This document shows positions 20,497 through 34,429 of a stretch of DNA of 64,000 nt, piece by piece. The position numbers and the translations under genes were made by a program. Every line of letters begins with the position of its first letter. Positions within the stretch are counted from its first letter, which is position 1. The stretch lies in assembly GCA_016234115.1 (NCBI GenBank), contig JACRHD010000017.1, positions 811 through 64,810 on the forward strand. Direction: 5' to 3'. Under the pieces are notes generated by a model. That model was given only the letters and a program-made list of their open reading frames with translations, was not told the origin of the DNA and searched no databases. Source of the stretch: Nitrospirota bacterium (GTDB lineage Bacteria; Nitrospirota; Thermodesulfovibrionia; UBA6902).

Positions 20497-21996
20497 TCAA
20501 GTTTCATTGTATTTTGCAATCAAAAGACGCCAGGGAATATCGTGATTGCTGATCGATTTCCAGATATAGACGATAAGCGCAACCAGCAATAAAAAATGGC
20601 GTCCGATATAAAGCCCATTGTAATCTAATAATAAATAGCCGACAGTCACTATTACGATAAATATAACGTCGAATTGCAACCCTTTTGCCAGGGTTATAAT
20701 CGACAGCCTCTTATGAATAATAAAAATACAAATTATATCTACCATGGAAAGGCAGAATGCCGTAGCCGAGGCGGCGCCTATCATTCCATATCGCGGCACC
20801 AATAATATATTCAGGATAATATTCAATGTCCCCCAGAATATATTAACCTTCATATAGACTTTGTGCTGGCCGGTCATTTGCAATAAAATACCGATCAAAC
20901 CGGAGCATGCTTTTATCATTTGCCCCATTATAAGAATCAGGAGCGCGGCATAGCCTGCCGCAAATTCAGGGCCGTAGAAATATTTCAGGATATATTTGCC
21001 CTCTATGGCAAGTATCAGAATGACCGGCATCGACATGCTCAAAATCCAGCGTGTGCTCTCACGGACGACCTTTTTTAATTCAGCATGGTCCCCGGAGGTA
21101 TGTATGGTTGATATCAGGGAAGGGATGACGGCGGTAAAGGCCATCATGGGAAAGTACACGAGAAGGACAAGTTTTGCCGCCACTCCGTATATCCCGACGA
21201 TTTCAGTGGATTTGTACATACCCAGTATCCATACATCGGCCTGGGTATAGAGCAGCACGCTCATGCTTGTAAATATTATTGTGTATGCCACGTCTATGAC
21301 TTTCCGCTTTTCACACTGTCCTCTGACCGGTCTTAATGAAGCTGTTCTTTTCCGGAGGAATCTGATTGAAACAATTACAGAAATGATTTCGCCGGCAGCA
21401 AAGGCAATGACCGCGTAACCGGGAGATGTCCCCTTAAGGGACAAGAGCAGAAAAACCACTATCTTGAAGGAGGGCGAAATTAATGATTCCGAAATCAGGG
21501 CCCTGAATGCATCTTTATATCCCCTCAATATTCCCCCGATCACGTCCCTTATTACCCATGCGGGGATTGCCAGGACCGCGACCGGCAACAACTTCAGCAG
21601 CCCCTCGGAGTGAAATATATTGACAGAAATGAACTTCGAGCAGGCCAGGACAAGGAGCATAAAAATTATCGAAACGAGGAAACAAAACCTGATGACAAAG
21701 GAAATAGTCCCCTTTAACCTTTCCCGATCATTCAGATCAGCATAAATGGGTATAAACTTCATCATGGTCTCTTCCATACCGAATTTTGCAAGCTGAACGG
21801 ATATTCTTATGACCGTCACGGCGAGTATGACTTCACCTATCCCGCCTGCGCCCAAAATCCGCGCAAGGAGGACCTGATTAAAAAACCCAAGGAGCGTATT
21901 GGATATCTTCAGGGCAAAGGCTATTGCCCCGCTCCTTGCTCCGACCGCTAAGTTATCATTCATACCGTCATGAATATCCGGGCCGTTATCAGCCAT
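20497..21996 (-). CDS. Wzx-like polysaccharide flippase (MOP/MATE superfamily, polysaccharide biosynthesis protein)
   Basis: 499 aa with ~12-14 TM helices. The N-terminal region …ISNTLLGFFNQVLLARILGAGGIGEV… is typical of the Wzx/RfbX family. Confidence 0.65.
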   Translation of the reverse strand: MADNGPDIHDGMNDNLAVGARSGAIAFALKISNTLLGFFNQVLLARILGAGGIGEVILAVTVIRISVQLAKFGMEETMMKFIPIYADLNDRERLKGTISFVIRFCFLVSIIFMLLVLACSKFISVNIFHSEGLLKLLPVAVLAIPAWVIRDVIGGILRGYKDAFRALISESLISPSFKIVVFLLLSLKGTSPGYAVIAFAAGEIISVIVSIRFLRKRTASLRPVRGQCEKRKVIDVAYTIIFTSMSVLLYTQADVWILGMYKSTEIVGIYGVAAKLVLLVYFPMMAFTAVIPSLISTIHTSGDHAELKKVVRESTRWILSMSMPVILILAIEGKYILKYFYGPEFAAGYAALLILIMGQMIKACSGLIGILLQMTGQHKVYMKVNIFWGTLNIILNILLVPRYGMIGAASATAFCLSMVDIICIFIIHKRLSIITLAKGLQFDVIFIVIVTVGYLLLDYNGLYIGRHFLLLVALIVYIWKSISNHDIPWRLLIAKYNET

Positions 21997-22187: not shown

Positions 22188-22760
22188 CTAATGAATCGCT
22201 GCTATTTGTCCGCACAGATATTGCATCAACATATGAACCACTATCATGTGCATGTCTTCAACTTTTTGCATGTCGTTGACGGCGGCGACAAAAGGTATAT
22301 CCGCGATTTGCGACAATTTGCCGCCGTCAAAGCCGCTTAATCCGACAGTTTTTGCGCCCTTTTCTTTTGCGTAAGAAACCGCCATAAGTACATTCTTGGA
22401 ATTGCCGCTGCCGGAAATGCCGATAACTACATCACCTGGCCGAATAAAATTCTTGAGTTGTTCGACAAAGATATTATCATAGGAAACATCATTTGCATAA
22501 GCCAGAATCGTGGGGACATTATCGTTCAGACAAATGACCCTGAACTTGCGTTCAAGTTCGGAACAAGTCCCCTTGTTTATATCACACGCAAAATGGGACG
22601 CCGTGGAGCCGCTTCCCCCGTTGCCCATAATGAAAACCTGTTTATTATCATGGTATGCGGATAACATGGTCCGCCCGATTTCTTCAAACCGGTCATGCGG
22701 GAACATATCAAACAATATTTTTAATCGACTAAGGTACTCAAGGCTGAATTCCGGCTTCAT
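22188..22760 (-). CDS. gmhA: D-sedoheptulose-7-phosphate isomerase (SIS domain)
   Basis: Contains the SIS-domain motif …IMGNGGSGSTASHFACD… and …VVIGISGSGNSKNV… diagnostic of GmhA/phosphoheptose isomerase. It is 190 aa. Confidence 0.8.
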   Translation of the reverse strand: MKPEFSLEYLSRLKILFDMFPHDRFEEIGRTMLSAYHDNKQVFIMGNGGSGSTASHFACDINKGTCSELERKFRVICLNDNVPTILAYANDVSYDNIFVEQLKNFIRPGDVVIGISGSGNSKNVLMAVSYAKEKGAKTVGLSGFDGGKLSQIADIPFVAAVNDMQKVEDMHMIVVHMLMQYLCGQIAAIH

Positions 22761-22833
22761 TTTTCGGCTCCTTGACAGTTTGCGGGTTATTTAATGTTTG
22801 TAATGATCAGGCAGCGCATTTTTTTGAAATATG

Positions 22834-23823
22834 CTACTTGATTGAATAACTCCTTACATTGAAAATTATCCTGCTTCCGAAAGAATCCAGCATAAAAGGC
22901 AACTCCCTATACTCTTTGAGAGAAGACCTGACCGCATCCTGTTTATTTTTGGGGACATATAACAGCAGGAACCCTCCGCCCCCCGCCCCGCAGAGTTTGC
23001 CGCCGAGCGCTCCGGTAGTCATTGCCTTTTCATACATTGCATCGATCACTGGATTAGAAACGGTATTGACCAAAGTCTTTTTCAAAAGCCAATTTTCGTG
23101 CAGCAGCCTGCCCAGCCTGTCAAATTTGCCCTGGGTCAGGAAATCCTCCAGTTTTGGAACAAGAGCGCTCATTCTCTTCAAGCTGTCTCGTTTATTTTCA
23201 GTATTCTGTTTCTGTTTCCTGAGTATTTTGTCGGCCTTCCTTGTCTTGTTCGTATAAAACAACAGGAGTCTTGACCCTAATATCAGAAGGTTGCTGTCAA
23301 AAACAGGGACCTTCGAAACGGTGACGGATTCATCGGGATGAAAAATGATTTTATTGAGGCCGCCGTATGCCGCTATATACTGGTCCTGCTTGCCTATCGG
23401 TTTTTTGCAGATATCAATTTCTATCTCGCAGGCTTCTCTTGCAATCCGCTCCGACGTCACCGGCATTCCCGCATAATTATACAAGGCGTTTAACAACCCG
23501 ACGGTAACGCTGCTTGAAGAGCCGAGTCCCGATCCTTCAGAAGGGACGTCAGCCAGAGTGGTTATCTCAACTCCGCTCTTTATACCGACTTTTCGCATGG
23601 CTGCGCGGACCAGCTCATGTCTTATCTCTGAAACATCATCAACAATTTCTTTTATGCTGTAATTGATATATATCTTTTCATCAAATCTTCCCTTAACTAT
23701 CACGTAAACATATTTGTCTATTGCGGAACTGAGAACCATTCCATCTTCCCTGCGATAAAAGGACTTCAAATCAGTCCCTCCGCCTACAAAAGATATCCGT
23801 AATGGGGTCTGAGAAATTACCAC
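22834..23823 (-). CDS. hddA: GHMP-family sugar kinase, D-glycero-alpha-D-manno-heptose-7-phosphate kinase-like
   Basis: GHMP motifs ISFVGGGTDL and PSEGSGLGSSSSVTVGLLNAL. It sits immediately between gmhA and a sugar-1-P nucleotidyltransferase, the gene order of GDP-heptose clusters. Confidence 0.7.
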   Translation of the reverse strand: MVISQTPLRISFVGGGTDLKSFYRREDGMVLSSAIDKYVYVIVKGRFDEKIYINYSIKEIVDDVSEIRHELVRAAMRKVGIKSGVEITTLADVPSEGSGLGSSSSVTVGLLNALYNYAGMPVTSERIAREACEIEIDICKKPIGKQDQYIAAYGGLNKIIFHPDESVTVSKVPVFDSNLLILGSRLLLFYTNKTRKADKILRKQKQNTENKRDSLKRMSALVPKLEDFLTQGKFDRLGRLLHENWLLKKTLVNTVSNPVIDAMYEKAMTTGALGGKLCGAGGGGFLLLYVPKNKQDAVRSSLKEYRELPFMLDSFGSRIIFNVRSYSIK

Positions 23824-23838
23824 GTTGTCCCTTTCTTT

Positions 23839-24567
23839 TTATCCGTGAAAACAACCATTATGAGCGCGATGAAATATTTCATCCTTAACGTCCTTTTCGG
23901 CCTTATTAAATTTGTCCGGGGTCCCGATATCCAGCAAATAATCATCAATAACGTAACCTGCCGCTTTTCCGGCAATATGGGGAAGCACGTTATGACCGAG
24001 ATCAAATATTTCCCTGTCGGGCCACAGGTCCTTAAGGCCCTGCCCGCTGATCATGATCCCGGCAAATGCGAGGTCCGATACGGGGTTTGCGGGTTTTTCG
24101 ACAAAGGAAACAACAGTCGCAGATTCATCTGTCTCAACAATCCCGCATTCGCGGGGGGTCGGCGTCTTAAATAAAGCCAGGGTATAATCCTTGCCGCATT
24201 GCGCGTGGAATCGAAACATCTTCCTCAAATTTATGTTGGTCAGATTGTCCGCGTACAGAATAAAAAACGAATCCTCTCCTTTAACAAAGTCCCAGTTTTT
24301 TTTTATCGTCCCGCCGCTTCCCATAAGGGTAGGTTCATATGTAAGCCTGATCCTGAGCCCCCGGGAATGACTGTTCACATAATCCTTCACTTTTCCGGCA
24401 AGATGTGAAGTATTGATCAGGATTTCATTTATTCCATGAAGCTCAAAAAGATCGAACCAATATTCAAGTAACGGCCGTCCGTTGATTGATACAAGACATT
24501 TCGGCGTATGCAGCGTCAACGGCTTAAGCCGCGTGCCTTCTCCGGCAGCAAGCAGGAAGGCCTTCAT
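23839..24567 (-). CDS. hddC: Sugar-1-phosphate nucleotidyltransferase, D-glycero-alpha-D-manno-heptose-1-phosphate guanylyltransferase-like
   Basis: The N-terminus MKAFLLAAGEGTRLKPLT is the nucleotidyltransferase G-x-G-T-R motif. It is 242 aa. Its start overlaps the next gene's stop. Confidence 0.7.
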   Translation of the reverse strand: MKAFLLAAGEGTRLKPLTLHTPKCLVSINGRPLLEYWFDLFELHGINEILINTSHLAGKVKDYVNSHSRGLRIRLTYEPTLMGSGGTIKKNWDFVKGEDSFFILYADNLTNINLRKMFRFHAQCGKDYTLALFKTPTPRECGIVETDESATVVSFVEKPANPVSDLAFAGIMISGQGLKDLWPDREIFDLGHNVLPHIAGKAAGYVIDDYLLDIGTPDKFNKAEKDVKDEIFHRAHNGCFHG

Positions 24568-25676
24568 TTCTTAATGGCCCTCACTACCCCCATATTCTTC
24601 ATTGTCTTCTCCGCATAATCAAGAATATCTTCGATATCGGTTTGCCTGTTAAGATATTTCCAATATTCCTCTATACTGTTTTCAATAGAATATTCAGGTT
24701 GCCAGCCAAGGGATTTGAGTTTGCCGATATCCGACAATATATGCCTCGTGTCCCCATAACGGTAAAATTCGGAAACGACGGGAGCTATATGCCTTCCTGT
24801 CACATTCTGCACCTTTTCGTAAAAATCCAGGACCGTACAGGCCTTTCCGCCCCCGACATTAAATCCCTGATAATTCGCCCTGTCATCTTCCAGGACTTTT
24901 ATATTGGCGTTTACCACATCGTGATAATTCACATAGTCCCTGACTTGCATGCCGTCTTCATAGATGGTCGGCTGTTTATTAAAATAAAGATGCAGTGCAA
25001 ATATTCTCATGGCCCCGGAATAGGCATTATAAAAGGATTGGCGGGGTCCCTGAACAATGGAATAACGCATGGCAACAGAAGGGATGCCGTATCTTTTCCC
25101 CAGATTAATAGCGATTATTTCCTGCGAATGTTTTGACATCGCATATTGGTTCTGGGGATTGATCTTATCTTCCGGAGTCGGCAGGTATTGCACGTACTTT
25201 CCGCAAAACGGGCAGTGATGCTCCCAGTCCCCTTTTGAAAGCTGTTCCTCCAGGCGGATATCGGGTATCATTTGTCCGTGGTCCTGACATCTGTATAATC
25301 CTTCCCCCAAAACAGCCTGGGAAGACGCCACAACAACTTTTTTAATGGGCAGCTTTTTCTCGACGATTATTTCATAAATAAGGGCCGTGCTGACACTGTT
25401 GACATGAAAATACGTGCTGAAATCCGGGAGGTAATCCTGATACGCGGCCAGATGAAAGATCGCGTCAATTCCCTTCATTGATTTCTCCAGGGTCGCTTTG
25501 TCCCTCACATCTCCGACAATAAATTCCGCCTTTGAAGGGATATAATCAGGTTTGCCTTTCATGTGAACAGGCTTCTGAAGATTATCAAGTATCCGCACAC
25601 TGTATCCTTTTTCAAGCAATCTGTCTACGGTGTGTGATCCTATAAATCCGGCGCCCCCCGTGACTAATACGCGCAC
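24564..25676 (-). CDS. NAD-dependent epimerase/dehydratase (extended SDR) with a Cys/His zinc-ribbon-like insertion
   Basis: MRVLVTGGAGFIGSHTVDRLL (GxxGxxG) and the catalytic YxxxK (YAMSKHSQE). A ~40-aa insertion is present (…CQDHGQ…HHCPFCGKYVQY…) that is absent from canonical GalE/RmlB-type enzymes. Confidence 0.7.
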   Translation of the reverse strand: MRVLVTGGAGFIGSHTVDRLLEKGYSVRILDNLQKPVHMKGKPDYIPSKAEFIVGDVRDKATLEKSMKGIDAIFHLAAYQDYLPDFSTYFHVNSVSTALIYEIIVEKKLPIKKVVVASSQAVLGEGLYRCQDHGQMIPDIRLEEQLSKGDWEHHCPFCGKYVQYLPTPEDKINPQNQYAMSKHSQEIIAINLGKRYGIPSVAMRYSIVQGPRQSFYNAYSGAMRIFALHLYFNKQPTIYEDGMQVRDYVNYHDVVNANIKVLEDDRANYQGFNVGGGKACTVLDFYEKVQNVTGRHIAPVVSEFYRYGDTRHILSDIGKLKSLGWQPEYSIENSIEEYWKYLNRQTDIEDILDYAEKTMKNMGVVRAIKK

Positions 25677-25747
25677 TTTCCTCCCTTATTACAGTTCTGA
25701 AATAAGTTGTTTGTATTTCTCAAAATTATCAAAGAGCACAAAAAGTA

Positions 25748-26728
25748 TCAGTCCGGATAGCCATGATGGTTTCTTGAATGCCAATCCCATGCAGTCCGCA
25801 CAATTTGCCTGATCTCGGGATACCTCGGCTTAAGCCCCAGAAGTGAACGGGTGCGTTCAGAAGAAGCGACGAGAACCGCGGGGTCTCCGGACCGGCGATC
25901 AGCTTCTCTTGCCGGTATGGGATGACCGGTAATCTCACGGGCGGCCTCAATAACTTCCTTTACGGAATACCCTTCCCCGTTGCCGAGGTTGAGTTTCTGC
26001 GGCCCGATGTCATCCATTCGCCGAAGAGCTTCAATATGCGCCATGGCAAGATCTTCAACATGTATATAATCACGGATGCATGTCCCGTCTCTCGTGTCGT
26101 AATTGTTTCCGTAAATGTCCACATGGTCCCTTTGCCCTAATGCGGTCTGTAAAACTATAGGAATCAGATGTGTCTCAATACGATGGTGTTCCCCATGTTC
26201 GACTGTGGCTCCTGCCGCGTTAAAATAGCGTAAGCAGACATAGTTCAGACCATGCGCCTTATGATACCAGTCAAGCATCTGTTCGAACATAAGCTTGGAC
26301 CTGCCATAAGCATTTATCGGGTTGGTAGGATGTTTCTCATCAATAGGGGTGTATTCAGGATTGCCGAAGAGAGCGGCTGTCGACGAAAAAATAATACGCT
26401 TAACATTGGATTCTCTCATGGCCTCAAGTAATTCCAGCCCCTTGGATACATTGCCGAGAAAGTAATCTTGAGGATGTGACATGGATTTCGATACCAGCGT
26501 TTCGCCGGCCATGTGAATTACGGCGTCTATCTGATTACTGCCGAGTATTTTCCTGACATAATCCCTCGTTCCGATATCAGCTTCAAAAAAAGGAATATCC
26601 GCCGGGATGGCGGACCTGTGGCCTTCGACGATATTATCTATTACAGACACAGAGAATCTTTCTTTAAGCAGCATTTCCACGACAACACTTCCCACGTAAC
26701 CGGCGCCGCCGGTGACTAACACCTTCAT
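25748..26728 (-). CDS. galE: UDP-glucose 4-epimerase
   Basis: MKVLVTGGAGYVGSVVVEML and SSTAALFG, with Y-x3-K (YGRSKLMFE). Length is 326 aa. Confidence 0.8.
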   Translation of the reverse strand: MKVLVTGGAGYVGSVVVEMLLKERFSVSVIDNIVEGHRSAIPADIPFFEADIGTRDYVRKILGSNQIDAVIHMAGETLVSKSMSHPQDYFLGNVSKGLELLEAMRESNVKRIIFSSTAALFGNPEYTPIDEKHPTNPINAYGRSKLMFEQMLDWYHKAHGLNYVCLRYFNAAGATVEHGEHHRIETHLIPIVLQTALGQRDHVDIYGNNYDTRDGTCIRDYIHVEDLAMAHIEALRRMDDIGPQKLNLGNGEGYSVKEVIEAAREITGHPIPAREADRRSGDPAVLVASSERTRSLLGLKPRYPEIRQIVRTAWDWHSRNHHGYPD

Positions 26729-27495
26729 GTCTTTTCTCCCGCCGCATTCAAGTTGTTATGATACCTCAAACGGTAAAGTCCTCGTAAATCGTCATACGCA
26801 TCTTTAAATATTTTGGCCTTTGTGTCCGGGTCTTCAAGCCAGGTCACAGGTATTTCCTTAATCTTGTAGCCTTTCCTTTCAGCGTAAAAAAGGAACTCGG
26901 TATCAAAAAACCATTCGTTATCCTCAATGTAAGACAATAGTTTCTGAACTACCTCGCGGCGTCCGGTCTTAAACCCGCAGTGGGCATCATGAAAGTGGGT
27001 CCCAAGAGCCAACTTTATTACCGCGTTATAGCTCCGTGATACGAATTCACGCTTCAGGCATCTTGTGGTGTTTGAATTTCTTGACAGCCTGTTGCCTACC
27101 ACGATATCAGCCCCTTCGTTAAGGAGGTCCACAGCGCGTATTAATGCGTCTAACGATGTGGAAAGATCAATGTCCATGTAACTTACGAAATCGCAATCAG
27201 TCTGTTCCCACGCAGTCCGGAGGGCGATGCCGCGCCCCTTTCGGGGGATGTAAAGATATTTCATGATCGGTATTTCCGACTCTATTGCACGACCTATCTC
27301 TCCTGTGCGGTCTTTGGAATTATTGTCGGCGATAACGATCTTCCACTCATACCTTTCATATTCACGTAAAAAAGCCGTAAGCGTCAGAACGCTTTGACGC
27401 AGCACTTTTTCTTCATTATAAACGGGAAGCACGATTAAGGCGGAGGGCCTCTTTTTCATATGATTCCGAATCTTCAGGTTTCCTGTGCCAGTCAT
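26725..27495 (-). CDS. Family-2 glycosyltransferase (DPM1/ArnC-like polyprenyl-phosphate sugar synthase type)
   Basis: LIVLPVYNEEKVL…IADNNSKDRT…DIDLS motifs are typical of dolichol-P-mannose/undecaprenyl-P-sugar synthases. It is 256 aa with no TM anchor. Confidence 0.75.
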   Translation of the reverse strand: MTGTGNLKIRNHMKKRPSALIVLPVYNEEKVLRQSVLTLTAFLREYERYEWKIVIADNNSKDRTGEIGRAIESEIPIMKYLYIPRKGRGIALRTAWEQTDCDFVSYMDIDLSTSLDALIRAVDLLNEGADIVVGNRLSRNSNTTRCLKREFVSRSYNAVIKLALGTHFHDAHCGFKTGRREVVQKLLSYIEDNEWFFDTEFLFYAERKGYKIKEIPVTWLEDPDTKAKIFKDAYDDLRGLYRLRYHNNLNAAGEKT

Positions 27496-27750
27496 TAGAA
27501 AATTATGTATACAAATAACTTTCGGGCAGCGTTATGATTAGATGATAATATTATTTGCAAGTAATTATAATATATAAAAAAATACAATATATTTTCAAGA
27601 GAAACTTATAGCACCCAATATATGAGTATACAGACTTATAAAAAAATATGTAGGGCGGCTTACTCAAGCGATGCATCGACGTTTAAAATTATCCGAACAG
27701 ATATGGACATGAGGCTCCCGGATATTAACAGTAATATGTAAAACTTATAT

Positions 27751-27781
27751 TTGCATAAGCACATGGTTAAATTGTTATAAT
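27751..27781 (+). promoter_or_regulatory. Sigma-70-like promoter for the exosortase operon
   Basis: TTGCAT (27751-27756), a 19-nt spacer, then perfect TATAAT (27776-27781), ~75 nt upstream of the exosortase start. It lies in a 360-bp AT-rich divergent intergenic region. Confidence 0.35.
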
Positions 27782-27857
27782 ATCACATTGAACGTACAAC
27801 TACAGATTACATCCAATGTAAGGAACAAGCGCCGCCATTTCATCCTGATATTTTAAA

Positions 27858-28676
27858 ATGTTTAATTATTTAATCTGGATATTAATAATAATTCTGTATA
27901 GTCCGGTATTCTATTCTCTCTATCAGTTTCGTTGGGAAAAACTGGATTACACTCATGCATATTTTATTCTGCCGATATCCTTATGGCTGACATGGCGCAA
28001 GCGAAGACAACTGGTTGAACTCTTTAGTGAGGGAAGTAATAACTTCGGATTTGTCAGTTTCGCCATCCTGCTTATAGGACTTCTGATGTTTTTTTTCGGC
28101 TGGCGAGAGGATTATTTATTTATAACTGCGCTTTCCCTGATACCTGTTTTATGCGGCACGATAATCTACCTTTACGGAATAAAAACAGTCAGGGCTTTGT
28201 CTTTTCCCCTTTTCTATCTCCTGCTTCTTGTGCCTCCTCCCATGGGGGTACTGGACAGCGTTACACTCCCCATGCGCCACGGCATTTCCGTTGCAACAGA
28301 AAAAATATTGCTGCTTTTAGATTATCCTATTTCAAGAGCGGGATTGGAATTGACAATTGGTTATAATGTTATTTTTATGGGAGCCCCATGCAGCGGATTT
28401 CGCTCGCTTGTTACTATGTTTTCCCTTGTACTCGTTTATGTATATTTTGTTAAGGGTTCTATCTCTAAAAAAATCATTCTGACCTCATCGATAATACCGA
28501 TGGCGCTGATAGGAAACCTTATCAGGGTCATAACCCTGTGCCTCATCACTTTTTATTTTGGCGAAGAAGTCGGACAGGGTTTCTTTCATAACTTCAGCGG
28601 GATAGTAATATTCATCATTACAATCCTTGGTCTGTTAGGCGTTGAATCGCTTTTCGAGGCCCCAAGAAATAATTGA
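27858..28676 (+). CDS. Exosortase (EpsH/XrtA-like transpeptidase)
   Basis: 272 aa with ~8 TM helices. It carries the exosortase active-site signature …GAPCSGFRSLV… (Cys nucleophile in C-S-G-x-R-S) and the downstream conserved N-x-x-R (GNLIRVITL). Confidence 0.7.
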   Translation: MFNYLIWILIIILYSPVFYSLYQFRWEKLDYTHAYFILPISLWLTWRKRRQLVELFSEGSNNFGFVSFAILLIGLLMFFFGWREDYLFITALSLIPVLCGTIIYLYGIKTVRALSFPLFYLLLLVPPPMGVLDSVTLPMRHGISVATEKILLLLDYPISRAGLELTIGYNVIFMGAPCSGFRSLVTMFSLVLVYVYFVKGSISKKIILTSSIIPMALIGNLIRVITLCLITFYFGEEVGQGFFHNFSGIVIFIITILGLLGVESLFEAPRNN

Positions 28677-29335
28677 GCGGAGACAACTTATACATATTGT
28701 GGGGCAGGAATAACAGAATGATAATATTATGTTCCTATTTCACATTACTCTTAATCATCATATTGTTTTACCTGTTTAATCCATTTCACAATAAATGCAC
28801 AAAAGGCAGTTGTATTAACGGGTATGGCGTCTATGAACATAATAGCGGCATGTCTTATGCCGGTGAATGGAAAAACGGCAGAAGGCATGGAACAGGGACA
28901 TTGACGTCACCCGGCAATTACAAACTTTCGGGTGAATGGAAAAATAATAGAATACATGGAACCGGAACCTTAACTTATCCGTACGGCTATAAATATTCCG
29001 GCAGTTGGATGAATGGAAACAGACATGGAAGAGGGAATATCATTACCCCGGACGGTAAAATTGTTTTTACAGGTGATTGGGAACATGATAAAAGGAACGG
29101 ATATGGAACGGCAATCTATCGAGACGGCGCTCAATATAAGGGGGAATGGAAATACAATATTCCGCACGGCGCAGGGACATTTATTGATCCCTCCGGATAT
29201 AAATATGAGGGCCAATGGAAAGAGGGTAAAAAGCATGGCAGCGGGAAAGAAACTTTTCCAAACGGCTACACATATACCGGCAAATGGGAGCGCGGGGAAA
29301 GAGTTGAAATTAACAATATAATTTTTGCCCCCTGA
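28673..29335 (+). CDS. MORN-repeat protein with N-terminal membrane anchor
   Basis: An N-terminal TM helix is followed by ~7 tandem MORN units (Y-x-G-x-W-x-x-G-x-x-H-G-x-G: YAGEWKNGRRHGTGT, LSGEWKNNRIHGTGT, YSGSWMNGNRHGRGN …). Its ATG overlaps the exosortase stop (ATGA). Confidence 0.75.
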   Translation: MSGDNLYILWGRNNRMIILCSYFTLLLIIILFYLFNPFHNKCTKGSCINGYGVYEHNSGMSYAGEWKNGRRHGTGTLTSPGNYKLSGEWKNNRIHGTGTLTYPYGYKYSGSWMNGNRHGRGNIITPDGKIVFTGDWEHDKRNGYGTAIYRDGAQYKGEWKYNIPHGAGTFIDPSGYKYEGQWKEGKKHGSGKETFPNGYTYTGKWERGERVEINNIIFAP

Positions 29336-29470
29336 GAGCAATTCAATCAATCGGTTTTGACAATTGATTTTGAAAACGGCTTACTTGCGGGCTAATATTT
29401 TTTTAATCAAAAGACAAGTCACAACAACTGGTAGCTTGTCAAAGGCGGCAACATATGAGGGAATGCAATT

Positions 29471-30490
29471 GTGATAACAATTCTGAAGCATAATGAAGCC
29501 ACCGTTACAGTAGAAGAATTGCCCTCCGGCAAAAACAGGATCATTATTGAGCCCTTGAACCAGAATTCATTTATACGCTGCAAAACATGGGAGACTGTTT
29601 ACCCGCTAAATCTGATAGAGAAGATATTAACGATAAAAGGGCCCAATTGGTTATGTGATGAAATCATGCGTGATGAATCGCCGGATTATGTGCAAGATAG
29701 TTTGAAATATAATTTATTGGGCCATGTAAGTGGTATTTCTTTTTCGAATAAAAAGATTCTGGACTTTGGCTGCGGCAGCGGTTCATCAACGATGATTCTT
29801 GGCAGAATGTTTCCCCATACCGAAATAGTCGGCATAGAACTTGATGATAATTTGTTATCGGTAGCCAGGCAACGATCTACATATTATGGTTTCGATAACA
29901 GAATAAAACTGTTAAAATCACCTGATGCCGATAATTTACCAAAAGATCTCGGAAAATTTGATTACGTTGTATTGCACGCAGTCTTTGAGCATTTTCTGCC
30001 GGGTGAACGAAAAATGCTCTTGCCGAAGATATGGAATCTCTTATACCCGGAAGGGGTCTTGTTTATAGAAGAAACGCCATACAGATATTTCCCAATCGAA
30101 CTTCATACTACACGGCTGCCAATAATTAATTATTTGCCTAATAAAATTGCATTTTACTTTGCTAAGAAATTTTCCAAAAGCAACATAGCAAATGATAGCT
30201 GGAATTCTTTGTTAAGAAAAGGTATAAGGGGTGGTAGTGTTCGTGAGATCCTCGGTATTTTAAACAAATGTAAAGAAAAACCGTTCTTGCTAAAACCTTC
30301 TCTATTAGGAGCTACGGATAGAATCGATCTGTGGTACATGCGATCACGTAAAAGTAGTTTTATTAAGAAAATGTACTTTTTGCTGACTAAGCTATTAAAG
30401 ATGACGACCGGCTTTATCTTTTTGCCGGATTTAAGCTTGGCAATCAAGAAATTGCCGGAAAAAACAGCCATGCGCAGCAGTGAAATATAA
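29471..30490 (+). CDS. Class I SAM-dependent methyltransferase
   Basis: Motif I LDFGCGSGSSTMIL and an acidic motif II (IVGIELDD). It is 339 aa and sits between the MORN gene and the EpsI-like gene. Confidence 0.7.
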   Translation: MITILKHNEATVTVEELPSGKNRIIIEPLNQNSFIRCKTWETVYPLNLIEKILTIKGPNWLCDEIMRDESPDYVQDSLKYNLLGHVSGISFSNKKILDFGCGSGSSTMILGRMFPHTEIVGIELDDNLLSVARQRSTYYGFDNRIKLLKSPDADNLPKDLGKFDYVVLHAVFEHFLPGERKMLLPKIWNLLYPEGVLFIEETPYRYFPIELHTTRLPIINYLPNKIAFYFAKKFSKSNIANDSWNSLLRKGIRGGSVREILGILNKCKEKPFLLKPSLLGATDRIDLWYMRSRKSSFIKKMYFLLTKLLKMTTGFIFLPDLSLAIKKLPEKTAMRSSEI

Positions 30491-30551
30491 CAACAACCGC
30501 TGTTTGGGAGCAGGAGATAAAGTATGGAAATAATCGGGAAGGAATGCTGAT

Positions 30552-31214
30552 ATGACAAAAAAAAGATACATAGTTGTGATTATTTTAATTTCACTGACTC
30601 TTATTGCAAGTTATTCCATTCCAAGAAAACGTTATGCCGGAACAAACATTATTGCCGAATTGAAAATTCCCCGTTCGATTAATAATTGGTCCGGGGTAGA
30701 TGTTACCGACAGACTTGAGATCGGGGTTACGGAAGAAATATATAATTTTATAGGTGATGCAATTGCTTACGAGTATACAAATAAAGAAGGCAGGAAACTT
30801 CTTCTGATTATTCTGGACGCAGGCAATTTTCATCATCCCAATGTCTGTTTTACCAGCGCCGGGTTTGAAATCCGTGAACTTGAAGACACTGAATTTGCTT
30901 CTCCCTCCAATGCCTTCAAAGCCCATACGCTCCTCACAAAAAAGGGGAATGATAATTATTTAAGTTTTTACTGGATAAGCATTGATAATAAAATAGTCCA
31001 TGAGTGGATCGACCAGAAGATAAAACAGTTATATTTTTCCATGTTTAACAAGGGAAGAGTGGGCCTGATGATACGAATCGATATTCCCGCTAATGAAGCA
31101 GATATAGATCAGTCAATTCTGCTTGCAAAGCAATTTATCAGTGAGATAGGCCCGTTACTTGAGACCAGGCAGAGGAGCTTCATTTTTGGTATTGATTCCG
31201 GGGGCCAACTATAA
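30552..31214 (+). CDS. EpsI-like exosortase-associated protein (N-terminal TM anchor + periplasmic domain)
   Basis: 220 aa with a single N-terminal TM helix (IVVIILISLTLIASYSI) and a mixed alpha/beta domain. Position in the exosortase operon and size match the EpsI family. The family call is by context, not by a recognised motif. Confidence 0.45.
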   Translation: MTKKRYIVVIILISLTLIASYSIPRKRYAGTNIIAELKIPRSINNWSGVDVTDRLEIGVTEEIYNFIGDAIAYEYTNKEGRKLLLIILDAGNFHHPNVCFTSAGFEIRELEDTEFASPSNAFKAHTLLTKKGNDNYLSFYWISIDNKIVHEWIDQKIKQLYFSMFNKGRVGLMIRIDIPANEADIDQSILLAKQFISEIGPLLETRQRSFIFGIDSGGQL

Positions 31215-32218
31215 TGAAGAAAGCAAAAACGTTACATGAAAGGTTTGGTTATTTAAAAAGACATTTCTATTCTTTCGCCCCTCATCTGACTATCCGGAAA
31301 CTCTCAAACCTTCTCCTCAATGAGATTGAGATGCGTTTATCTGTCAGTAATCCAAGGAGTCTGCCTCCTTATATAAAGGTGGAACCCAGTATTTTATGCC
31401 AACTACGATGCAAAGGATGCATACAAAGGGACCCGGAATTTAAGAAGCAGTATATCGGAACCAAACCTATCAATCTCGGTGAATTTGAAAAAATCATAGA
31501 TCCTCTCGCCGAAACACTCCTGGGTATCAGCCTGAGTTTTTTCGGCGAGCCGCTTCTGAATAAAGATATTGTCCAGATGATCAAATTCGCTCATGGTAAA
31601 AATATTGCTGTCGGTTTCCCCACAAATTTCTCGTTTAATTTCACCGACGATCAAATAAATCAGCTTGCCGGGTCAGGACTTGATTCTTTATCGGTTTCAT
31701 TAGACGGGGCTTCTGAAGAAACATACCTGAGATATCGTGTGGGCGGTAATTTCAATCAGGTGCTCAAAAATGTTAAATCATTATCGGTAGCCAAAAAGAA
31801 ACTCGGACTTCGGCGTCCGAGAATCATCTGGAAATTCGTTATATTCGATTACAATGAGCATGAAGTCGACATAGTCAGAAACACTTATGCTTCAAGGGGA
31901 TTCGATTCCTACGAGTTTGTCTATAACGTTTCGAGTGACTACTCGAAAAGTCAGACACAATCATACAGAAAAGAACTCTGGAAAAATAAAAAACCCTGCT
32001 ACTGGCTCTGGAATACAATGATCATAAGATGGGACGGAAATATTCACCCTTGCTGCCGAACGGAACAATTCAATTTGGGAAATGCCTTAAAGGAGAATAT
32101 CAAAGACGTCTGGCGGGGGAGAAAGTATTACGCATTAAGAAGAGGGTTTACTAAAAAAGATTACGGGGAGAAATTACATCCGAACTGCAGAAAGTGCATG
32201 GAATCAAATTATTTTTGA
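31214..32218 (+). CDS. Radical SAM enzyme with SPASM domain
   Basis: CX3CX2C (ILCQLRCKGC) and a C-terminal Cys cluster (CYWLWNTMIIRWDGNIHPCC…NCRKC). Its start overlaps the EpsI-like stop by 1 nt. Confidence 0.75.
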   Translation: MKKAKTLHERFGYLKRHFYSFAPHLTIRKLSNLLLNEIEMRLSVSNPRSLPPYIKVEPSILCQLRCKGCIQRDPEFKKQYIGTKPINLGEFEKIIDPLAETLLGISLSFFGEPLLNKDIVQMIKFAHGKNIAVGFPTNFSFNFTDDQINQLAGSGLDSLSVSLDGASEETYLRYRVGGNFNQVLKNVKSLSVAKKKLGLRRPRIIWKFVIFDYNEHEVDIVRNTYASRGFDSYEFVYNVSSDYSKSQTQSYRKELWKNKKPCYWLWNTMIIRWDGNIHPCCRTEQFNLGNALKENIKDVWRGRKYYALRRGFTKKDYGEKLHPNCRKCMESNYF

Positions 32219-32253: not shown

Positions 32254-33366
32254 TTACAGGGTTGATTTTCCTGTGATGATTTTATTGTAAACCTGGAATG
32301 TCTTATAAGCAATATCTTCCCAGTTGTATTTATTCTTAATTATATTCAACTGGGCCTCTCTCTCTTGTACCGGGTTATCTATAAATTCTTTTATTTTTAT
32401 TCTTAGAGCAGTCAGGTCGCCGGTCTTGAAATATCCGGTCTCATTCAGCTCAACACTTTTATTAGCCGGGATATCACTGGCAATGCAATTCAATCCATAA
32501 CTCATGGCTTCAAGCAACACAATAGGCAATCCCTCATAATATGAAGGCAAGACAAACAGACCCGCATGAGTATAGATTTCACGCAAAGGCTTGCCTTTTA
32601 AAAAACCGGTCAATACCACGTTCCTATTTTCTCCCGCTTTGAGTTTAAATTGCCTGCTGTAATTGTCCTCATGATCGGCATCTCCTACTATAGCAAGCTT
32701 CCATTGTTTAAAATGACCCTCGTTAAACGCGGCCAGTAAATCATCAAAACCCTTTTCCGGAACGAATCGCCCCACGCTGAGAATATACTTTCCTTTTTGC
32801 AGACCCATTTTTGTAATATACTCATCGTTGTCGGCAGGATCAGGTATGTCAACTCCATTAGGTATAACTGTGGCCTCCCGGCCATATTTTTTTCTGATAT
32901 CATCAGCTATGTTCCCTGAAATAGCTATAATCTCGTGAGCGAAAACAACTCCGACAAGTTCACATAACTGTAAAAATATTTTTGCCGGTAAACTCCATTT
33001 CTTTCTTTTATAATCCGGCCCGTGATTAGTGATAATAACTTTCATTCCCAGTGCCCGCGCAACCGGCACAAGGAGAGACGGCCCCACTGCGTGAATATGC
33101 ATCAAATCCGGCTGAATCCGGCGAGCTTTCAATACGCTTCTAAACGTGTGCACGAGGGCTTCGAATAATTTACTGCGGGGACAGCTCAGAGGTATTAGAG
33201 AAACGCCCCTGTATTGATCAGCTTTGTCGGAAATATAAGGTTTCCTTGTGAAGACCGTAACCTCGCAACCCAATTTCGCGAGATAAGGATACAGATGTTC
33301 ACAGTGATTCTCAACCCCTCCCTGAACGCCCGGGAATCCGCGAGTGCCTGCGACTGCTATTTTCAT
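32254..33366 (-). CDS. Family-4 (group 1) glycosyltransferase
   Basis: GT-B C-terminal E-x7-E motif (YYEGLPIVLLEAMSYGLNCIAS). Length is 370 aa. Confidence 0.8.
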   Translation of the reverse strand: MKIAVAGTRGFPGVQGGVENHCEHLYPYLAKLGCEVTVFTRKPYISDKADQYRGVSLIPLSCPRSKLFEALVHTFRSVLKARRIQPDLMHIHAVGPSLLVPVARALGMKVIITNHGPDYKRKKWSLPAKIFLQLCELVGVVFAHEIIAISGNIADDIRKKYGREATVIPNGVDIPDPADNDEYITKMGLQKGKYILSVGRFVPEKGFDDLLAAFNEGHFKQWKLAIVGDADHEDNYSRQFKLKAGENRNVVLTGFLKGKPLREIYTHAGLFVLPSYYEGLPIVLLEAMSYGLNCIASDIPANKSVELNETGYFKTGDLTALRIKIKEFIDNPVQEREAQLNIIKNKYNWEDIAYKTFQVYNKIITGKSTL

Positions 33367-33391
33367 AGGTAATGTCTATGCGGCAGAGTTT

Positions 33392-34429
33392 CTAAGAGAT
33401 ATCGGATATCTTCTCACTTTTAACATCCGGGAAGCACAGGTTCGGTTCCATGTTAAGCAATACACGGATTTTATTCTTCATAATCCATTTGACCGGGATC
33501 CCCTTATGCTTCTTCATCACAGGGGCGGCGCTGCCGACCATCCAGCACTGCTTGTCACACGTTTTTACAATGTCCCTGACCCGTTGCGCCTGTCCGCTGT
33601 TCCATATCTCATCAAATGACTCATCTTTTAAATTTCCCATCGGGACTTTTATATTCATCCCGTTACAGGCAAGGATATCGCCGCTGGGGTCCAAGAAACA
33701 CGATTCTTCGCCCATCTCGCACTTCAGAAATCTTTTACCGCCATATATATAATTCATCAGACCGTAATTGAAGTATGCCCTGAACCATTTCTTAACGGAC
33801 CTCGACTTTAGAAGTTCAGCAATAAGCTTTGCAAATTCATTACAGACAGCATCCTTGTTTTCTATTCGATTATCCAGTTTATGAAAATAATGTGAATTAT
33901 GAAGTGTAGCTGTAGCAAATTCATACCCGAGCGCATCGGAAAGCTCATACAACGGCAGAAGGTCCTTGCAATTCATGTCCTGTACCGTCATACCGAACCC
34001 TATGTCCTTCATGCCCATCTTTCTCAATGAAAGAAGCGTCCTTAGTGTTCTGTCGAAGCCTCTCGGTATTTTTCTGATGGTATCGTTGCTTTCCTGAAGT
34101 CCCTCTGTGCTTATTCTGATTCCGAGATCCGGATATTTCTCACATAACTTAATTATCCTCTCAGTGAAAAATCCGTTTGTACTTATAACAATTCGATCAG
34201 TTTTAGGACGAACCGCTTCGATAATTTCCTCTATATCCTGTCTTATGAACGGCTCCCCGCCGGTTATATTTATAAATCTCAATCCGGAGGGTATTTTCTC
34301 GATATCTTTAATCGTTATCTCATCCGCGGCTTTTGTAGGATAATGCCAGACATCGCACATATTACATTTCGCATTACATCTGTATGTAAGGATGACACAT
34401 ATTTCTTTTGGATATGATATCATAGGCAT
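33392..34429 (-). CDS. Radical SAM enzyme with SPASM domain
   Basis: CX3CX2C (YRCNAKCNMC), GGEP SAM motif, and a C-terminal SPASM Cys cluster (CEMGEESCFLDPSGDILACNGMN…CDKQC). Confidence 0.75.
   Translation of the reverse strand: MPMISYPKEICVILTYRCNAKCNMCDVWHYPTKAADEITIKDIEKIPSGLRFINITGGEPFIRQDIEEIIEAVRPKTDRIVISTNGFFTERIIKLCEKYPDLGIRISTEGLQESNDTIRKIPRGFDRTLRTLLSLRKMGMKDIGFGMTVQDMNCKDLLPLYELSDALGYEFATATLHNSHYFHKLDNRIENKDAVCNEFAKLIAELLKSRSVKKWFRAYFNYGLMNYIYGGKRFLKCEMGEESCFLDPSGDILACNGMNIKVPMGNLKDESFDEIWNSGQAQRVRDIVKTCDKQCWMVGSAAPVMKKHKGIPVKWIMKNKIRVLLNMEPNLCFPDVKSEKISDIS

What the first reader, a model, noticed from the sequence alone, without database searches (positions are those of the whole stretch)
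27858..32218. Exosortase operon with non-canonical passengers: exosortase → MORN-repeat protein → SAM methyltransferase → EpsI-like → SPASM radical SAM
The first gene carries the exosortase catalytic signature (C-S-G-x-R-S plus N-x-x-R). It sits beside a complete Wzx/Wzy EPS operon with WbaP-, Wza- and Wzc-like genes, a CapK-like ligase, a polysaccharide deacetylase and GT4s. That is the overall make-up of PEP-CTERM/XrtA exopolysaccharide loci. Classical XrtA loci place EpsI directly after, or fused to, the exosortase. Here three genes are inserted or appended, and all five are translationally coupled (ATGA/TAATG overlaps at 28673 and 31214). SPASM radical SAMs usually act on peptide or protein substrates, and MORN repeats are membrane-phospholipid-binding modules. 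This raises the possibility of a sorting module in which exosortase cargo or the exosortase itself is methylated or radical-modified. No PEP-CTERM-tailed protein is encoded anywhere in the window, so the substrates must lie elsewhere.
Basis: partly seen in the sequence, partly recalled or inferred. Interest (0 to 1): 0.75.

Follow-up and report, generated by a model that had tools for sequence, protein, structure and literature searches.

The report
Exosortase–EpsI pair split by inserted genes
This is an ordinary protein-sorting enzyme pair (exosortase plus EpsI) inside a large sugar-polymer gene cluster; the three unusual genes beside it occur only on this contig, so they are probably local additions and not a new sorting machine.

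Summary
They lie in a roughly 58 kb mosaic glycan locus. No PEP-CTERM tail is encoded in the window.

The proposed modification-coupled sorting module is not supported. I examined 77 related loci from other species. EpsI directly follows the exosortase in 64 and is fused to it in 3. None has a MORN gene or a member of this methyltransferase family within 10 kb. Only two carry a member of this radical SAM family, and neither sits in the operon position. Five more metagenomic relatives (65-73% identical) were checked, and all show the plain exosortase-EpsI pair.

Homologues of the methyltransferase and the radical SAM enzyme occur elsewhere without exosortases, usually among glycosyltransferases and sulfotransferases. 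The window itself holds four other radical SAM genes and a methyltransferase-GT2 fusion.

Only EpsI and the radical SAM gene overlap (TAATG). The other junctions are gaps of 41-135 nt.

The exosortase belongs to a widespread, well-conserved clade (Nitrospirota, Omnitrophota, Brocadiales) that scores nearest XrtB and XrtV but below their cut-offs. Relatives have canonical PEP-CTERM cargo genes next to it.

The parts
27496..27857 (.). AT-rich (30% GC) intergenic region between the divergent GT2 gene and the exosortase gene; presumed divergent promoter region
   Evidence: The promoter-like matches here are no more frequent than chance.
27858..28676 (+). Exosortase, 272 aa, of an unnamed XrtB/XrtV-like clade
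   Evidence: PF09721 scores 180.7 bits and TIGR02602 scores 138.3 against a 105.55 cut-off. XrtB scores 200.9 (cut-off 275), XrtV 192.8 (cut-off 313) and XrtA 136.6 (cut-off 208). There are 654 homologues at E<=1e-10; the best 120 listed are 64-74% identical. A crude hydropathy scan finds seven strongly hydrophobic segments.
28389..28406 (+). Catalytic Cys motif C178-S-G-F-R-S183
   Evidence: All six residues are invariant in the 25-sequence alignment A1.
28515..28526 (+). N220-x-x-R223 motif containing the catalytic Arg
   Evidence: N220 and R223 are invariant in A1.
28587..28589 (+). His244, third member of the Cys/Arg/His triad
   Evidence: Invariant in A1. The triad is described in PMC1569441.
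28718..29335 (+). MORN-repeat protein, 205 aa: one N-terminal hydrophobic anchor (residues 2-20) followed by about 7 MORN repeats. An alternative TTG start lies at 28673. Lineage-specific insert.
   Evidence: PF02493 scores 126 bits over 6 stretches. The best PDB sequence matches are MORN1 proteins at 4e-40. The anchor comes and the start-codon context. It has no relative in the other related loci. Only 5 weak relatives were found in metagenomes, none near an exosortase or EpsI.
29471..30490 (+). Class I SAM-dependent methyltransferase, 339 aa, with conserved N- and C-terminal extensions. Lineage-specific insert.
   Evidence: Methyltransf_25/12/31/11 domains. 885 homologues at E<=1e-5; apart from its own 100% database entry, the listed hits are 49-68% identical and come from many phyla. 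No family member occurs in the related exosortase loci. Homologues sit in a glycan locus (L084) or stand alone (L085). The AF2 model has pLDDT 92, and its fold hits are generic, mostly small-molecule methyltransferases.
30552..31214 (+). EpsI (DUF3485), 220 aa, with an N-terminal membrane anchor. It is the usual immediate partner of the exosortase but lies 1875 nt downstream here.
   Evidence: PF11984 scores 65.3 bits, TIGR02914 scores 47.6 against 42.8, and EpsI type B scores 70.8 against a 220 cut-off. Among related loci it is adjacent to the exosortase in 64 of 77 and fused in 3.
31214..32218 (+). Radical SAM enzyme, 334 aa, with CX3CX2C (C62/C66/C69, nt 31397-31420) and a C-terminal SPASM/twitch-type domain carrying 5 invariant Cys. 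Its start overlaps the EpsI stop (TAATG).
   Evidence: The AF2 model has pLDDT 93, and its N-terminus is two helices with no RRE-like fold. Fold hits mix SuiB, BtrN, SkfB, BlsE, DesII and MoaA. The only PDB sequence match is BlsE at 4e-5. Family members lie among GT and sulfotransferase genes in Thiomargarita (L086) and Brocadia (L063).
32254..34429 (-). GT4 glycosyltransferase (32254-33366) plus a second radical SAM/SPASM gene (33392-34429); a recurrent convergent neighbour of this exosortase clade
   Evidence: Orthologues of the radical SAM gene at >=250 bits occur in 10 of the 53 loci that have >=5 kb downstream. The two genes are adjacent in 7 loci.
15806..21996 (.). Conserved upstream backbone: 506-aa unknown (+), B12-binding radical SAM (-), PMT_2 (-), Wzx (-). 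In relatives this block abuts the exosortase directly.
   Evidence: The same block lies immediately upstream of the exosortase-EpsI pair in L012 and L094.
22188..27495 (-). Six-gene sugar-nucleotide/GT2 block (SIS, GHMP kinase, nucleotidyltransferase, two epimerases/dehydratases, GT2) lying between the backbone and the exosortase
   Evidence: The block is absent from this position in L012 and L094.

Best explanation
The region holds a canonical two-gene sorting unit: an exosortase (a Cys/Arg/His transpeptidase that cleaves PEP-CTERM tails) and its partner EpsI. The pair belongs to a widespread, so far unnamed clade that scores nearest XrtB and XrtV. It sits in a mosaic, multi-pathway glycan biosynthesis locus.

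In this one lineage two extra genes have been inserted between the exosortase and EpsI: a membrane-anchored MORN-repeat protein and a class I methyltransferase. A twitch-like radical SAM gene follows EpsI.

Shown here:
- the identity and catalytic residues of the exosortase;
- that adjacency of exosortase and EpsI is the rule in this clade;
- that the three extra genes are not conserved partners of the clade;
- that their homologues occur without exosortases;
- that relatives of this exosortase have canonical PEP-CTERM cargo genes beside them.

Inferred:
- The methyltransferase and the radical SAM enzyme tailor the polysaccharide or its sugar precursors, for example by O-methylation and a radical-mediated sugar modification. 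The other four radical SAM genes and the methyltransferase-GT2 fusion in the same locus would do similar work.
- The five genes are co-transcribed because of where they sit, not because they form one machine.
- The MORN protein's role is unknown. My best guess is a membrane-tethered protein-protein scaffold.
- The PEP-CTERM cargo of this organism is encoded elsewhere in its genome.
For: Exosortase identity: HMM scores and the catalytic triad.

Neighbourhood census of 77 species-level loci:
- EpsI is adjacent (gap <=200 nt) in 64 and fused in 3. It lies 260-1419 nt away in 4. Four loci are truncated, and none was found in 2.
- MORN is absent from all of them.
- This methyltransferase family is absent from all of them; only generic matches of <=31 bits appear.
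- This radical SAM family has members only in L052 (4.2 kb upstream) and L063 (2.6 kb downstream, beyond a Wzx gene).

Five additional metagenome relatives, 65-73% identical, all show exosortase followed directly by EpsI.

Synteny: L012 and L094 share the backbone unknown/B12-radical SAM/PMT_2/Wzx | exosortase-EpsI. The window has extra cassettes inserted on both sides of the exosortase.

Contexts of homologues:
- Methyltransferase P0124 lies with GT1, a deacetylase and a sulfotransferase. P0141 stands alone.
- Radical SAM P0250 lies among GT4, GT2 and five sulfotransferases. In L063 the order is Wzx, methyltransferase, radical SAM, then three sulfotransferases.

The window also contains radical SAM genes at 12513, 17342, 33392 and 34579, and a methyltransferase-GT2 fusion at 3702-5114.

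The in-operon radical SAM enzyme has one CX3CX2C motif plus only 5 auxiliary Cys, all invariant, and no RRE-like domain.

Cargo: 64 PEP-CTERM tails flank related exosortases. TIGR02595 passes its cut-off in 4 of the 8 tested.

Operon structure: I found no intrinsic terminator on the + strand inside the block and no flanking repeats. The five genes have similar GC content, 0.38-0.41.
Against: - The five genes share a strand, have short gaps and no internal + strand terminator, and have uniform composition. They are therefore very probably co-expressed, and co-expression with the exosortase could reflect a real functional link in this lineage.
- Substrates of the methyltransferase and the radical SAM enzyme are not established. 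Fold searches hit peptide-modifying enzymes (SuiB, SkfB) and sugar-modifying enzymes (BtrN, BlsE, DesII) about equally. They also gave generic methyltransferases, and Rickettsia protein-lysine methyltransferases appear among the weak sequence hits.
- A radical SAM/SPASM gene does recur near this exosortase clade: the orthologue of 33392-34429 is present in 10 of 53 loci. Some link between radical SAM chemistry and this clade's glycan is therefore plausible.
- I could not inspect the contexts of the closest methyltransferase relatives (P0122 and P0123, 66-68% identical, on 1.6-2.2 kb contigs).
- The arrangement is known from a single sample only.
Confidence: 0.72

Rival explanations
1. The five genes form a dedicated sorting module, specific to this lineage. 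PEP-CTERM cargo, or the exosortase or EpsI, is methylated and/or radical-modified before or during sorting, and the MORN protein acts as a membrane scaffold.
For: The genes share a strand and are tightly packed. EpsI and the radical SAM gene overlap (TAATG), and no internal + strand terminator was found. SuiB and SkfB, which are peptide-modifying, are among the top fold matches of the radical SAM enzyme. Weak sequence hits of the methyltransferase core include Rickettsia protein-lysine methyltransferases.
Against: None of the three genes is a conserved neighbour in the 77 genome-scan loci or the five metagenome relatives. Their homologues occur without exosortases, in glycan loci or alone. The radical SAM enzyme has no RRE domain and only 5 auxiliary Cys. 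No cargo or precursor peptide is encoded in the window. The fold and sequence matches do not discriminate between substrate classes.
Confidence: 0.08
2. The MORN and methyltransferase genes, and perhaps the radical SAM gene, are a hitch-hiking cassette. Their function would be unrelated to both the polysaccharide and protein sorting, for example lipid or small-molecule methylation. They would have landed in a permissive intergenic junction.
For: The junction between exosortase and EpsI tolerates unrelated inserts elsewhere: a 124-aa gene with no evident link to sorting or glycan synthesis in L031, and a 146-aa gene plus a cargo gene in L074. One methyltransferase homologue (P0141) stands alone next to carbonic anhydrase and antiporter genes. 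The top methyltransferase fold hits include lipid and isoprenoid methyltransferases. The MORN protein has no close relatives.
Against: There are no flanking repeats, no mobile-element genes and no compositional break. The closest methyltransferase homologue whose context I could inspect (P0124, 64% identical), and the radical SAM family members examined, sit among glycan genes.
Confidence: 0.15
3. Assembly artefact: the MORN and methyltransferase genes were joined into the exosortase-EpsI operon by mis-assembly of a metagenome.
For: The arrangement is seen in only one sample, SRR12113407.
Against: Two assemblies carry the same order and spacing: a 9.7 kb Logan contig and the 73 kb deposited MAG contig. 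Composition is uniform across the junctions, and there are no repeats at the junctions that could cause a chimera.
Confidence: 0.03

Closest known systems
Exosortase B / EpsI type B (NCBIfam TIGR03113, NF045609) and exosortase V / EpsI type V (NF035943, NF045608)
   Same: These are the best-scoring subtype models for both proteins. The proteins are about the same length (about 270 aa), the exosortase and EpsI are separate genes, the Cys/Arg/His triad is present, and the cargo of relatives is PEP-CTERM type.
   Different: All four scores are well below the curated cut-offs: 200.9 against 275, 192.8 against 313, 70.8 against 220 and 50.9 against 228. This is a sister clade, not a member. In this window the pair is also split by two genes.
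XrtA / PEP-CTERM exopolysaccharide loci (EpsH/EpsI of Methylobacillus sp. 12S; Haft et al. 2006, PMC1569441)
   Same: The exosortase is embedded in a Wzx/Wzy EPS locus with WbaP-, Wza- and Wzc-like genes, GT4s, a deacetylase, a CapK-like ligase and an outer-membrane beta-barrel. EpsI lies downstream of the exosortase.
   Different: XrtA scores 136.6 bits against a 208 cut-off. Every XrtA-system accessory model falls below its cut-off: TIGR03088, 03027, 03018, 03013 and 03016. I saw no PrsK/PrsR-type regulator among the genes I scanned. The window encodes no PEP-CTERM gene.
Twitch / partial-SPASM radical SAM enzymes acting on sugars (BtrN, BlsE, DesII)
   Same: All three are among the top fold matches (BtrN and BlsE around E 1e-11, DesII around 1e-9). 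BlsE is the only PDB sequence match. The protein has a single set of auxiliary Cys and no RRE domain, and it sits in a glycan gene context.
   Different: Sequence identity is only 13-16%. Peptide maturases (SuiB, SkfB) score equally well. The substrate is unknown.
MORN1-type all-MORN proteins (T. brucei, T. gondii, P. falciparum; PMC7725318)
   Same: The protein consists almost entirely of about 7 consecutive MORN repeats. Sequence matches to the MORN1 structures reach E 4e-40.
   Different: It is bacterial and has an N-terminal hydrophobic anchor. It has no close full-length relatives, and its function is unknown.

Membership tests
Exosortase (EpsH family; PF09721 / TIGR02602) | Profile score above the curated cut-off over the full length | tested here: met
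   PF09721 scores 180.7 bits (cut-off 25.7), matching residues 8-263 to model positions 2-251 of 254. TIGR02602 scores 138.3 against 105.55.
Exosortase (EpsH family; PF09721 / TIGR02602) | Absolutely conserved Cys, Arg and His residues | tested here: met
   C178, R223 and H244 are invariant in 25 homologues. The triad is described in PMC1569441.
Exosortase (EpsH family; PF09721 / TIGR02602) | Polytopic (8-TM) membrane protein | tested here: inconclusive
   A crude hydropathy scan finds 7 segments scoring >=1.6. This is consistent with 8 TM helices, but I did not run a proper topology predictor.
Exosortase (EpsH family; PF09721 / TIGR02602) | PEP-CTERM cargo proteins encoded in the same genome | not testable with these tools
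Relatives' loci carry 64 PEP-CTERM tails, and TIGR02595 passes its cut-off in 4 of the 8 tested.
Exosortase A (XrtA, TIGR03109) | Score above the model's cut-off | tested here: not met
   136.6 bits against a 208 cut-off.
Exosortase B (XrtB, TIGR03113) / exosortase V (NF035943) | Score above the model's cut-off | tested here: not met
   200.9 bits against 275 for XrtB and 192.8 against 313 for XrtV.
EpsI (TIGR02914 / PF11984) | Profile score above the cut-off | tested here: met
   TIGR02914 scores 47.6 against 42.8. PF11984 scores 65.3 against 26.1.
EpsI (TIGR02914 / PF11984) | Encoded immediately downstream of, or fused to, the exosortase | tested here: not met
   In the window it lies 1875 nt downstream with two genes in between. 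In the clade it is adjacent in 64 of 77 loci and fused in 3.
SPASM-domain radical SAM peptide maturases | CX3CX2C motif plus the seven-Cys SPASM motif for two auxiliary clusters (the seven-Cys definition is from my own knowledge) | tested here: not met
   CX3CX2C is present (C62/66/69), but the C-terminal domain has only 5 Cys (262, 280, 281, 325, 328). All are invariant in 109 homologues. Pfam SPASM does match, at 53 bits.
SPASM-domain radical SAM peptide maturases | RRE (PqqD-like) peptide-recognition domain and/or an adjacent precursor peptide gene | tested here: not met
   No Pfam domain lies N-terminal of the radical SAM core. In the AF2 model, residues 10-41 form two helices only. No small cargo-like ORF was seen. 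The precursor search was not exhaustive.
MORN repeat proteins (PF02493) | Multiple tandem MORN repeats above the gathering score | tested here: met
   126.2 bits over 6 stretches. Matches to MORN1 structures reach E 4e-40.
   Among the 77 genome-scan loci, MORN and the methyltransferase family occur in none and the radical SAM family in two, neither in the operon position. Five further relatives have exosortase followed directly by EpsI only.

The most novel reading that the evidence does not exclude
This unnamed exosortase clade (Nitrospirota, Omnitrophota, Brocadiales) may define a distinct PEP-CTERM system whose associated glycan is built with radical SAM chemistry. The evidence is the recurrent B12-radical SAM gene upstream and the GT4 plus radical SAM/SPASM pair downstream. 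In the present lineage the operon would have recruited three more components (a MORN scaffold, a methyltransferase and a twitch-type radical SAM enzyme) that act on the cargo-glycan conjugate or on the cargo itself.
Probability: 0.1. Interest if true: 0.55.

Novelty: new member of a known kind. Interest (0 to 1): 0.2.

Why it matters
The practical value is mostly negative. Operon membership on a single contig is a poor basis for proposing a new sorting module, and a cheap neighbourhood census settles the question.

Two modest positive points remain. First, a large, well-conserved exosortase-EpsI clade in Nitrospirota, Omnitrophota and anammox Planctomycetota is not captured by any curated subtype model. 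It could be named and given its own model. Second, that clade has a recurrent gene backbone that includes radical SAM enzymes. This may point to an unusual polysaccharide in these biofilm- and granule-forming, mostly uncultured lineages.

Tried and rejected
- PEP-CTERM scans of all six frames of the window, one strict and one loose, found nothing credible.
- Rfam gathering-threshold scan of the whole window found only tRNA-Thr.
- Repeat search around 27400-32400 found no direct or inverted repeats bracketing the MORN/methyltransferase insert.
- The promoter/terminator scan gave no more hits than chance and no + strand terminator inside the block.
- Composition shows no break at the insert.
- Fold searches with high-confidence AF2 models of the radical SAM enzyme and the methyltransferase do not discriminate between substrate classes.
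- PDB sequence searches gave only generic methyltransferase hits, and a weak BlsE hit for the radical SAM enzyme.
- tblastn of both enzymes against plasmids found no match.
- The metagenome scan with the MORN protein returned five weak relatives, none informative.
- I tried to extend beyond the window through the edge gene. Only an 8.3 kb contig came back, so the rest of the 73 kb MAG contig stayed out of reach.
- The look-up of P0186 (Noviherbaspirillum methyltransferase) was not on record.
- Literature searches for exosortase together with radical SAM, anammox or XrtB found no description of such a module.
- Anaerobic sulfatase maturase as the role of the radical SAM enzyme was considered because a sulfatase-family gene lies at 47231-49234. 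No such model appeared among the best 25 NCBIfam hits listed, so I did not pursue it.

Full report
**1. What is in the sequence**

Five + strand ORFs occupy 27858-32218.

- **27858-28676, exosortase.** PF09721 scores 180.7 bits over essentially the full model. The generic exosortase model TIGR02602 scores 138.3 against a 105.55 cut-off. In an alignment with 24 homologues, the residues C178-S-G-F-R-S183, N220, R223 and H244 are invariant. These correspond to the Cys/Arg/His set that Haft et al. described for the family (PMC1569441).
- **MORN-repeat protein.** PF02493 scores 126 bits over six stretches. Sequence matches to the MORN1 crystal structures reach E 4e-40. One N-terminal hydrophobic segment precedes the repeats.
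- **29471-30490, class I SAM methyltransferase**.
- **30552-31214, EpsI.** PF11984 scores 65 bits and TIGR02914 scores 47.6 against 42.8.
- **31214-32218, radical SAM enzyme** with a C-terminal domain that matches Pfam SPASM.

- The exosortase stops at 28674-28676. The overlapping start at 28673 is TTG (TTGA, not ATGA).
- A better start for the MORN gene is ATG 28718, which has AGGA about 8 nt upstream and was the start chosen in an independent gene call. That leaves a 41-nt gap.
- MORN to methyltransferase is 135 nt, and methyltransferase to EpsI is 61 nt.
- Only EpsI and the radical SAM gene overlap (TAATG).

Co-transcription is still likely. I found no + strand terminator-like site inside the block, and the five genes have similar GC content, 0.38-0.41.

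**2. Surroundings**

Almost the whole window up to about 58 kb is glycan biosynthesis.

- Upstream of the operon: GT2, two epimerases/dehydratases, a nucleotidyltransferase, a GHMP kinase, SIS, Wzx, PMT_2 and a B12-binding radical SAM gene.
- Downstream: GT4, two more radical SAM/SPASM genes, Wzy, GT4s, a BNR/sortilin-like protein, a deacetylase, a CapK-like ligase, a second Wzx, a membrane sulfatase-family protein, a third Wzy_C protein, an epimerase, Wzc-, Wza- and WbaP-like genes and a beta-barrel protein.
- Further upstream: another radical SAM/SPASM gene (12513-13622), a methyltransferase-GT2 fusion (3702-5114), GDP-mannose dehydratase, a second PMT_2 and a Wzy_C-TPR protein.

Radical SAM and methyltransferase genes are therefore scattered through the locus. 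They are not specific to the exosortase operon. No reading frame in the 64 kb ends in a PEP-CTERM-like tail.

**3. Which exosortase**

The best subtype models are XrtB (200.9 bits, cut-off 275) and XrtV (192.8, cut-off 313). XrtA scores 136.6 against 208. EpsI scores best with type B (70.8, cut-off 220). All XrtA-system accessory models also fall below their cut-offs.

The protein has 654 homologues at E<=1e-10. The best 120 listed are 64-74% identical. The named ones are labelled mainly Nitrospirae/Nitrospirota and Omnitrophica/Omnitrophota, with one from candidate division WS5 and one from an archaeal MAG. Their sources call them only 'exosortase' or 'exosortase/archaeosortase family protein'. 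The protein thus belongs to a large, well-conserved clade that sits beside XrtB and XrtV and has no curated subtype model.

**4. Are the passengers conserved?**

A scan of one genome per species returned 77 related loci with up to 10 kb on each side. They come from Nitrospirota, Thermodesulfovibrionia, Omnitrophota, Brocadiales and other Planctomycetota, plus a few distant ones. I searched all their ORFs with the window's proteins.

| Arrangement of EpsI relative to the exosortase | Loci |
|---|---|
| Starts within 200 nt of the exosortase stop | 64 |
| Fused to the exosortase | 3 |
| 260-1419 nt away | 4 |
| Locus truncated downstream | 4 |
| Not found (only 0.7-1 kb of downstream sequence) | 2 |

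- No locus has a MORN protein.
- A profile built from 120 methyltransferase homologues finds only generic matches of <=31 bits.
- A profile built from 109 radical SAM homologues finds true members only in L052 (4.2 kb upstream) and L063 (2.6 kb downstream).
- Five further relatives taken from metagenome contigs, 65-73% identical, all show the exosortase followed directly by EpsI.

The window's 1875-nt, two-gene gap is the largest seen. The junction does occasionally take inserts. In L031 it holds a 124-aa gene with no evident link to sorting or glycan synthesis. In L074 it holds a PEP-CTERM gene plus a 146-aa gene.

Synteny shows a backbone: a ~506-aa unknown, a B12-radical SAM gene, PMT_2 and Wzx, followed by exosortase and EpsI. 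This backbone is present in L012 and L094. The window keeps it, but with a six-gene sugar-nucleotide/GT2 block inserted upstream of the exosortase and the MORN and methyltransferase genes inserted downstream. No repeats or mobile-element genes flank the insert.

**5. Where the passengers' relatives live**

- **Methyltransferase.** The family has 885 hits at E<=1e-5, in organisms as different as Noviherbaspirillum, Nitronauta, Dependentiae and Sedimentisphaerales. A 64% homologue lies with GT1, a deacetylase, an acetyltransferase and a sulfotransferase. A 58% homologue in a Nitrospirota MAG stands alone next to carbonic anhydrase.
- **Radical SAM enzyme.** The family occurs in Thiomargarita, Bacteroidota, Kapabacteria and Colwellia. 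In Thiomargarita it lies among GT4, GT2 and five sulfotransferases, with no exosortase. In Brocadia L063 it follows a Wzx gene and a methyltransferase and precedes three sulfotransferases.
- **MORN protein.** It has only five weak relatives (34-46% identical) in the JGI metagenome collection, and none is near an exosortase or EpsI.

**6. Substrate clues**

- The radical SAM enzyme has exactly eight Cys, all invariant in 109 homologues: CX3CX2C plus five C-terminal Cys. From my own knowledge, that number fits one auxiliary cluster (twitch-like) and not the two clusters of a full seven-Cys SPASM domain.
- Its AF2 model (pLDDT 93) shows two N-terminal helices and no RRE-like domain.
- Fold matches are a mixture of peptide enzymes (SuiB, SkfB) and sugar or nucleotide enzymes (BtrN, BlsE, DesII, MoaA) at similar scores. 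The only PDB sequence match is BlsE at 4e-5.
- The methyltransferase model (pLDDT 92) matches generic, mostly small-molecule methyltransferases, including the sugar O-methyltransferase RebM.

None of this is decisive. The case for glycan tailoring rests mainly on gene context.

**7. Cargo**

In the flanks of related loci I found 64 distinct tails of the form [VT]PEP[IV]S..LFLLGG...RRxRK, often in tandem gene arrays. TIGR02595 passes its cut-off in 4 of the 8 I tested, and others hit PEP-CTERM protein families. The clade therefore handles canonical PEP-CTERM proteins. This fits the statement that XrtA and XrtB cleave PEP-CTERM (bioRxiv 10.1101/2023.06.07.544157). In Nitrospirota relatives, as in the window, cargo genes mostly lie elsewhere.

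**8.

MORN repeats as lipid binders is a contested idea. TbMORN1 showed no membrane or vesicle binding, and the repeats were reinterpreted as protein-protein interaction and dimerisation modules (PMC7725318). 'SPASM means peptide substrate' is weak for a five-Cys enzyme without an RRE domain.

**9. Verdict**

The exosortase, EpsI and EPS-locus reading is right. The assignment to XrtA is not.

The most likely picture is a canonical exosortase-EpsI unit in a mosaic glycan locus, split in this one lineage by two inserted genes and followed by one of several glycan-tailoring radical SAM enzymes.

Three points keep a small probability on a lineage-specific functional link:
- probable co-expression of the five genes;
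- unknown substrates for the two enzymes;
- a different radical SAM/SPASM gene (the orthologue of 33392-34429) that does recur near this clade, in 10 of the 53 loci with enough downstream sequence.

Noticed in passing
window 32254-34429 (- strand); L025, L036, L040, L041, L052, L060, L067 and others: A GT4 glycosyltransferase and a radical SAM/SPASM gene form a recurrent pair, convergent with and downstream of this exosortase clade. Orthologues of the radical SAM gene at >=250 bits occur in 10 of the 53 loci with >=5 kb downstream, and the two genes are adjacent in 7. This gene, not the in-operon one, is the radical SAM gene that tends to travel with the clade.
   Followed up: partly
window 15806-21996; L012 3614-9837; L094 84-7803: There is a conserved upstream backbone: a ~506-aa protein with no Pfam or NCBIfam match, a B12-binding radical SAM gene, PMT_2 and Wzx. 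In relatives it abuts the exosortase directly. In the window a six-gene sugar-nucleotide/GT2 block (22188-27495) separates them.
   Followed up: partly
L040 11457-16260; L068 3977-7082; L055 5451-12547; L081 8160-20790: Tandem arrays of 4-7 small PEP-CTERM genes lie next to the exosortase in Omnitrophota and Planctomycetota relatives. Within each array the tails are nearly identical, which suggests recent local duplication.
   Followed up: partly
L074 10924-12238; L031 10839-11213: Other inserts occur between the exosortase and EpsI. L074 has a PEP-CTERM cargo gene plus a 146-aa gene. L031 has a 124-aa gene with no evident link to sorting or glycan synthesis.
   Followed up: partly
L063 5934-7739; also L030 and L058: These loci have fused exosortase-EpsI proteins. 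The Brocadia protein in L063 carries a Gly/Arg-rich insertion of about 70 aa in an early loop.
   Followed up: no
window 12513-13622, 17342-18739, 31214-32218, 33392-34429, 34579-35661: One 64 kb window holds five radical SAM genes (four with SPASM-type domains of only 4-6 C-terminal Cys, one B12-binding). It also has three Wzy_C, two Wzx and two PMT_2 genes. Several glycan pathways appear to be concatenated.
   Followed up: partly
window 3702-5114 (- strand): A single protein fuses an N-terminal class I methyltransferase domain to a C-terminal GT2 domain. This shows that methylation is coupled to glycan synthesis elsewhere in the same locus.
   Followed up: no
window 8001-10551: The interval 8001-10000 has an AT skew of +0.25 and low GC (0.41). 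A tRNA-Thr(CGT) lies at 10475-10551 in the middle of the glycan region. This may be a boundary between two independently acquired glycan clusters.
   Followed up: no
L086 (Thiomargarita) 2432-12561; L063 11607-14349; L005 10640-11674; L084 5137-5922: Sulfotransferase genes repeatedly accompany homologues of the radical SAM and methyltransferase genes. This hints at sulfated polysaccharides. The window itself has a membrane sulfatase-family gene (47231-49234) instead of a sulfotransferase.
   Followed up: no
window 38518-40659 (- strand): A 713-aa BNR/sortilin-Vps10-like protein sits inside the EPS locus between two GT4 genes. It scores 160 bits against the F510_1955 glycosylhydrolase family, just under the 175 cut-off.
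   Followed up: no
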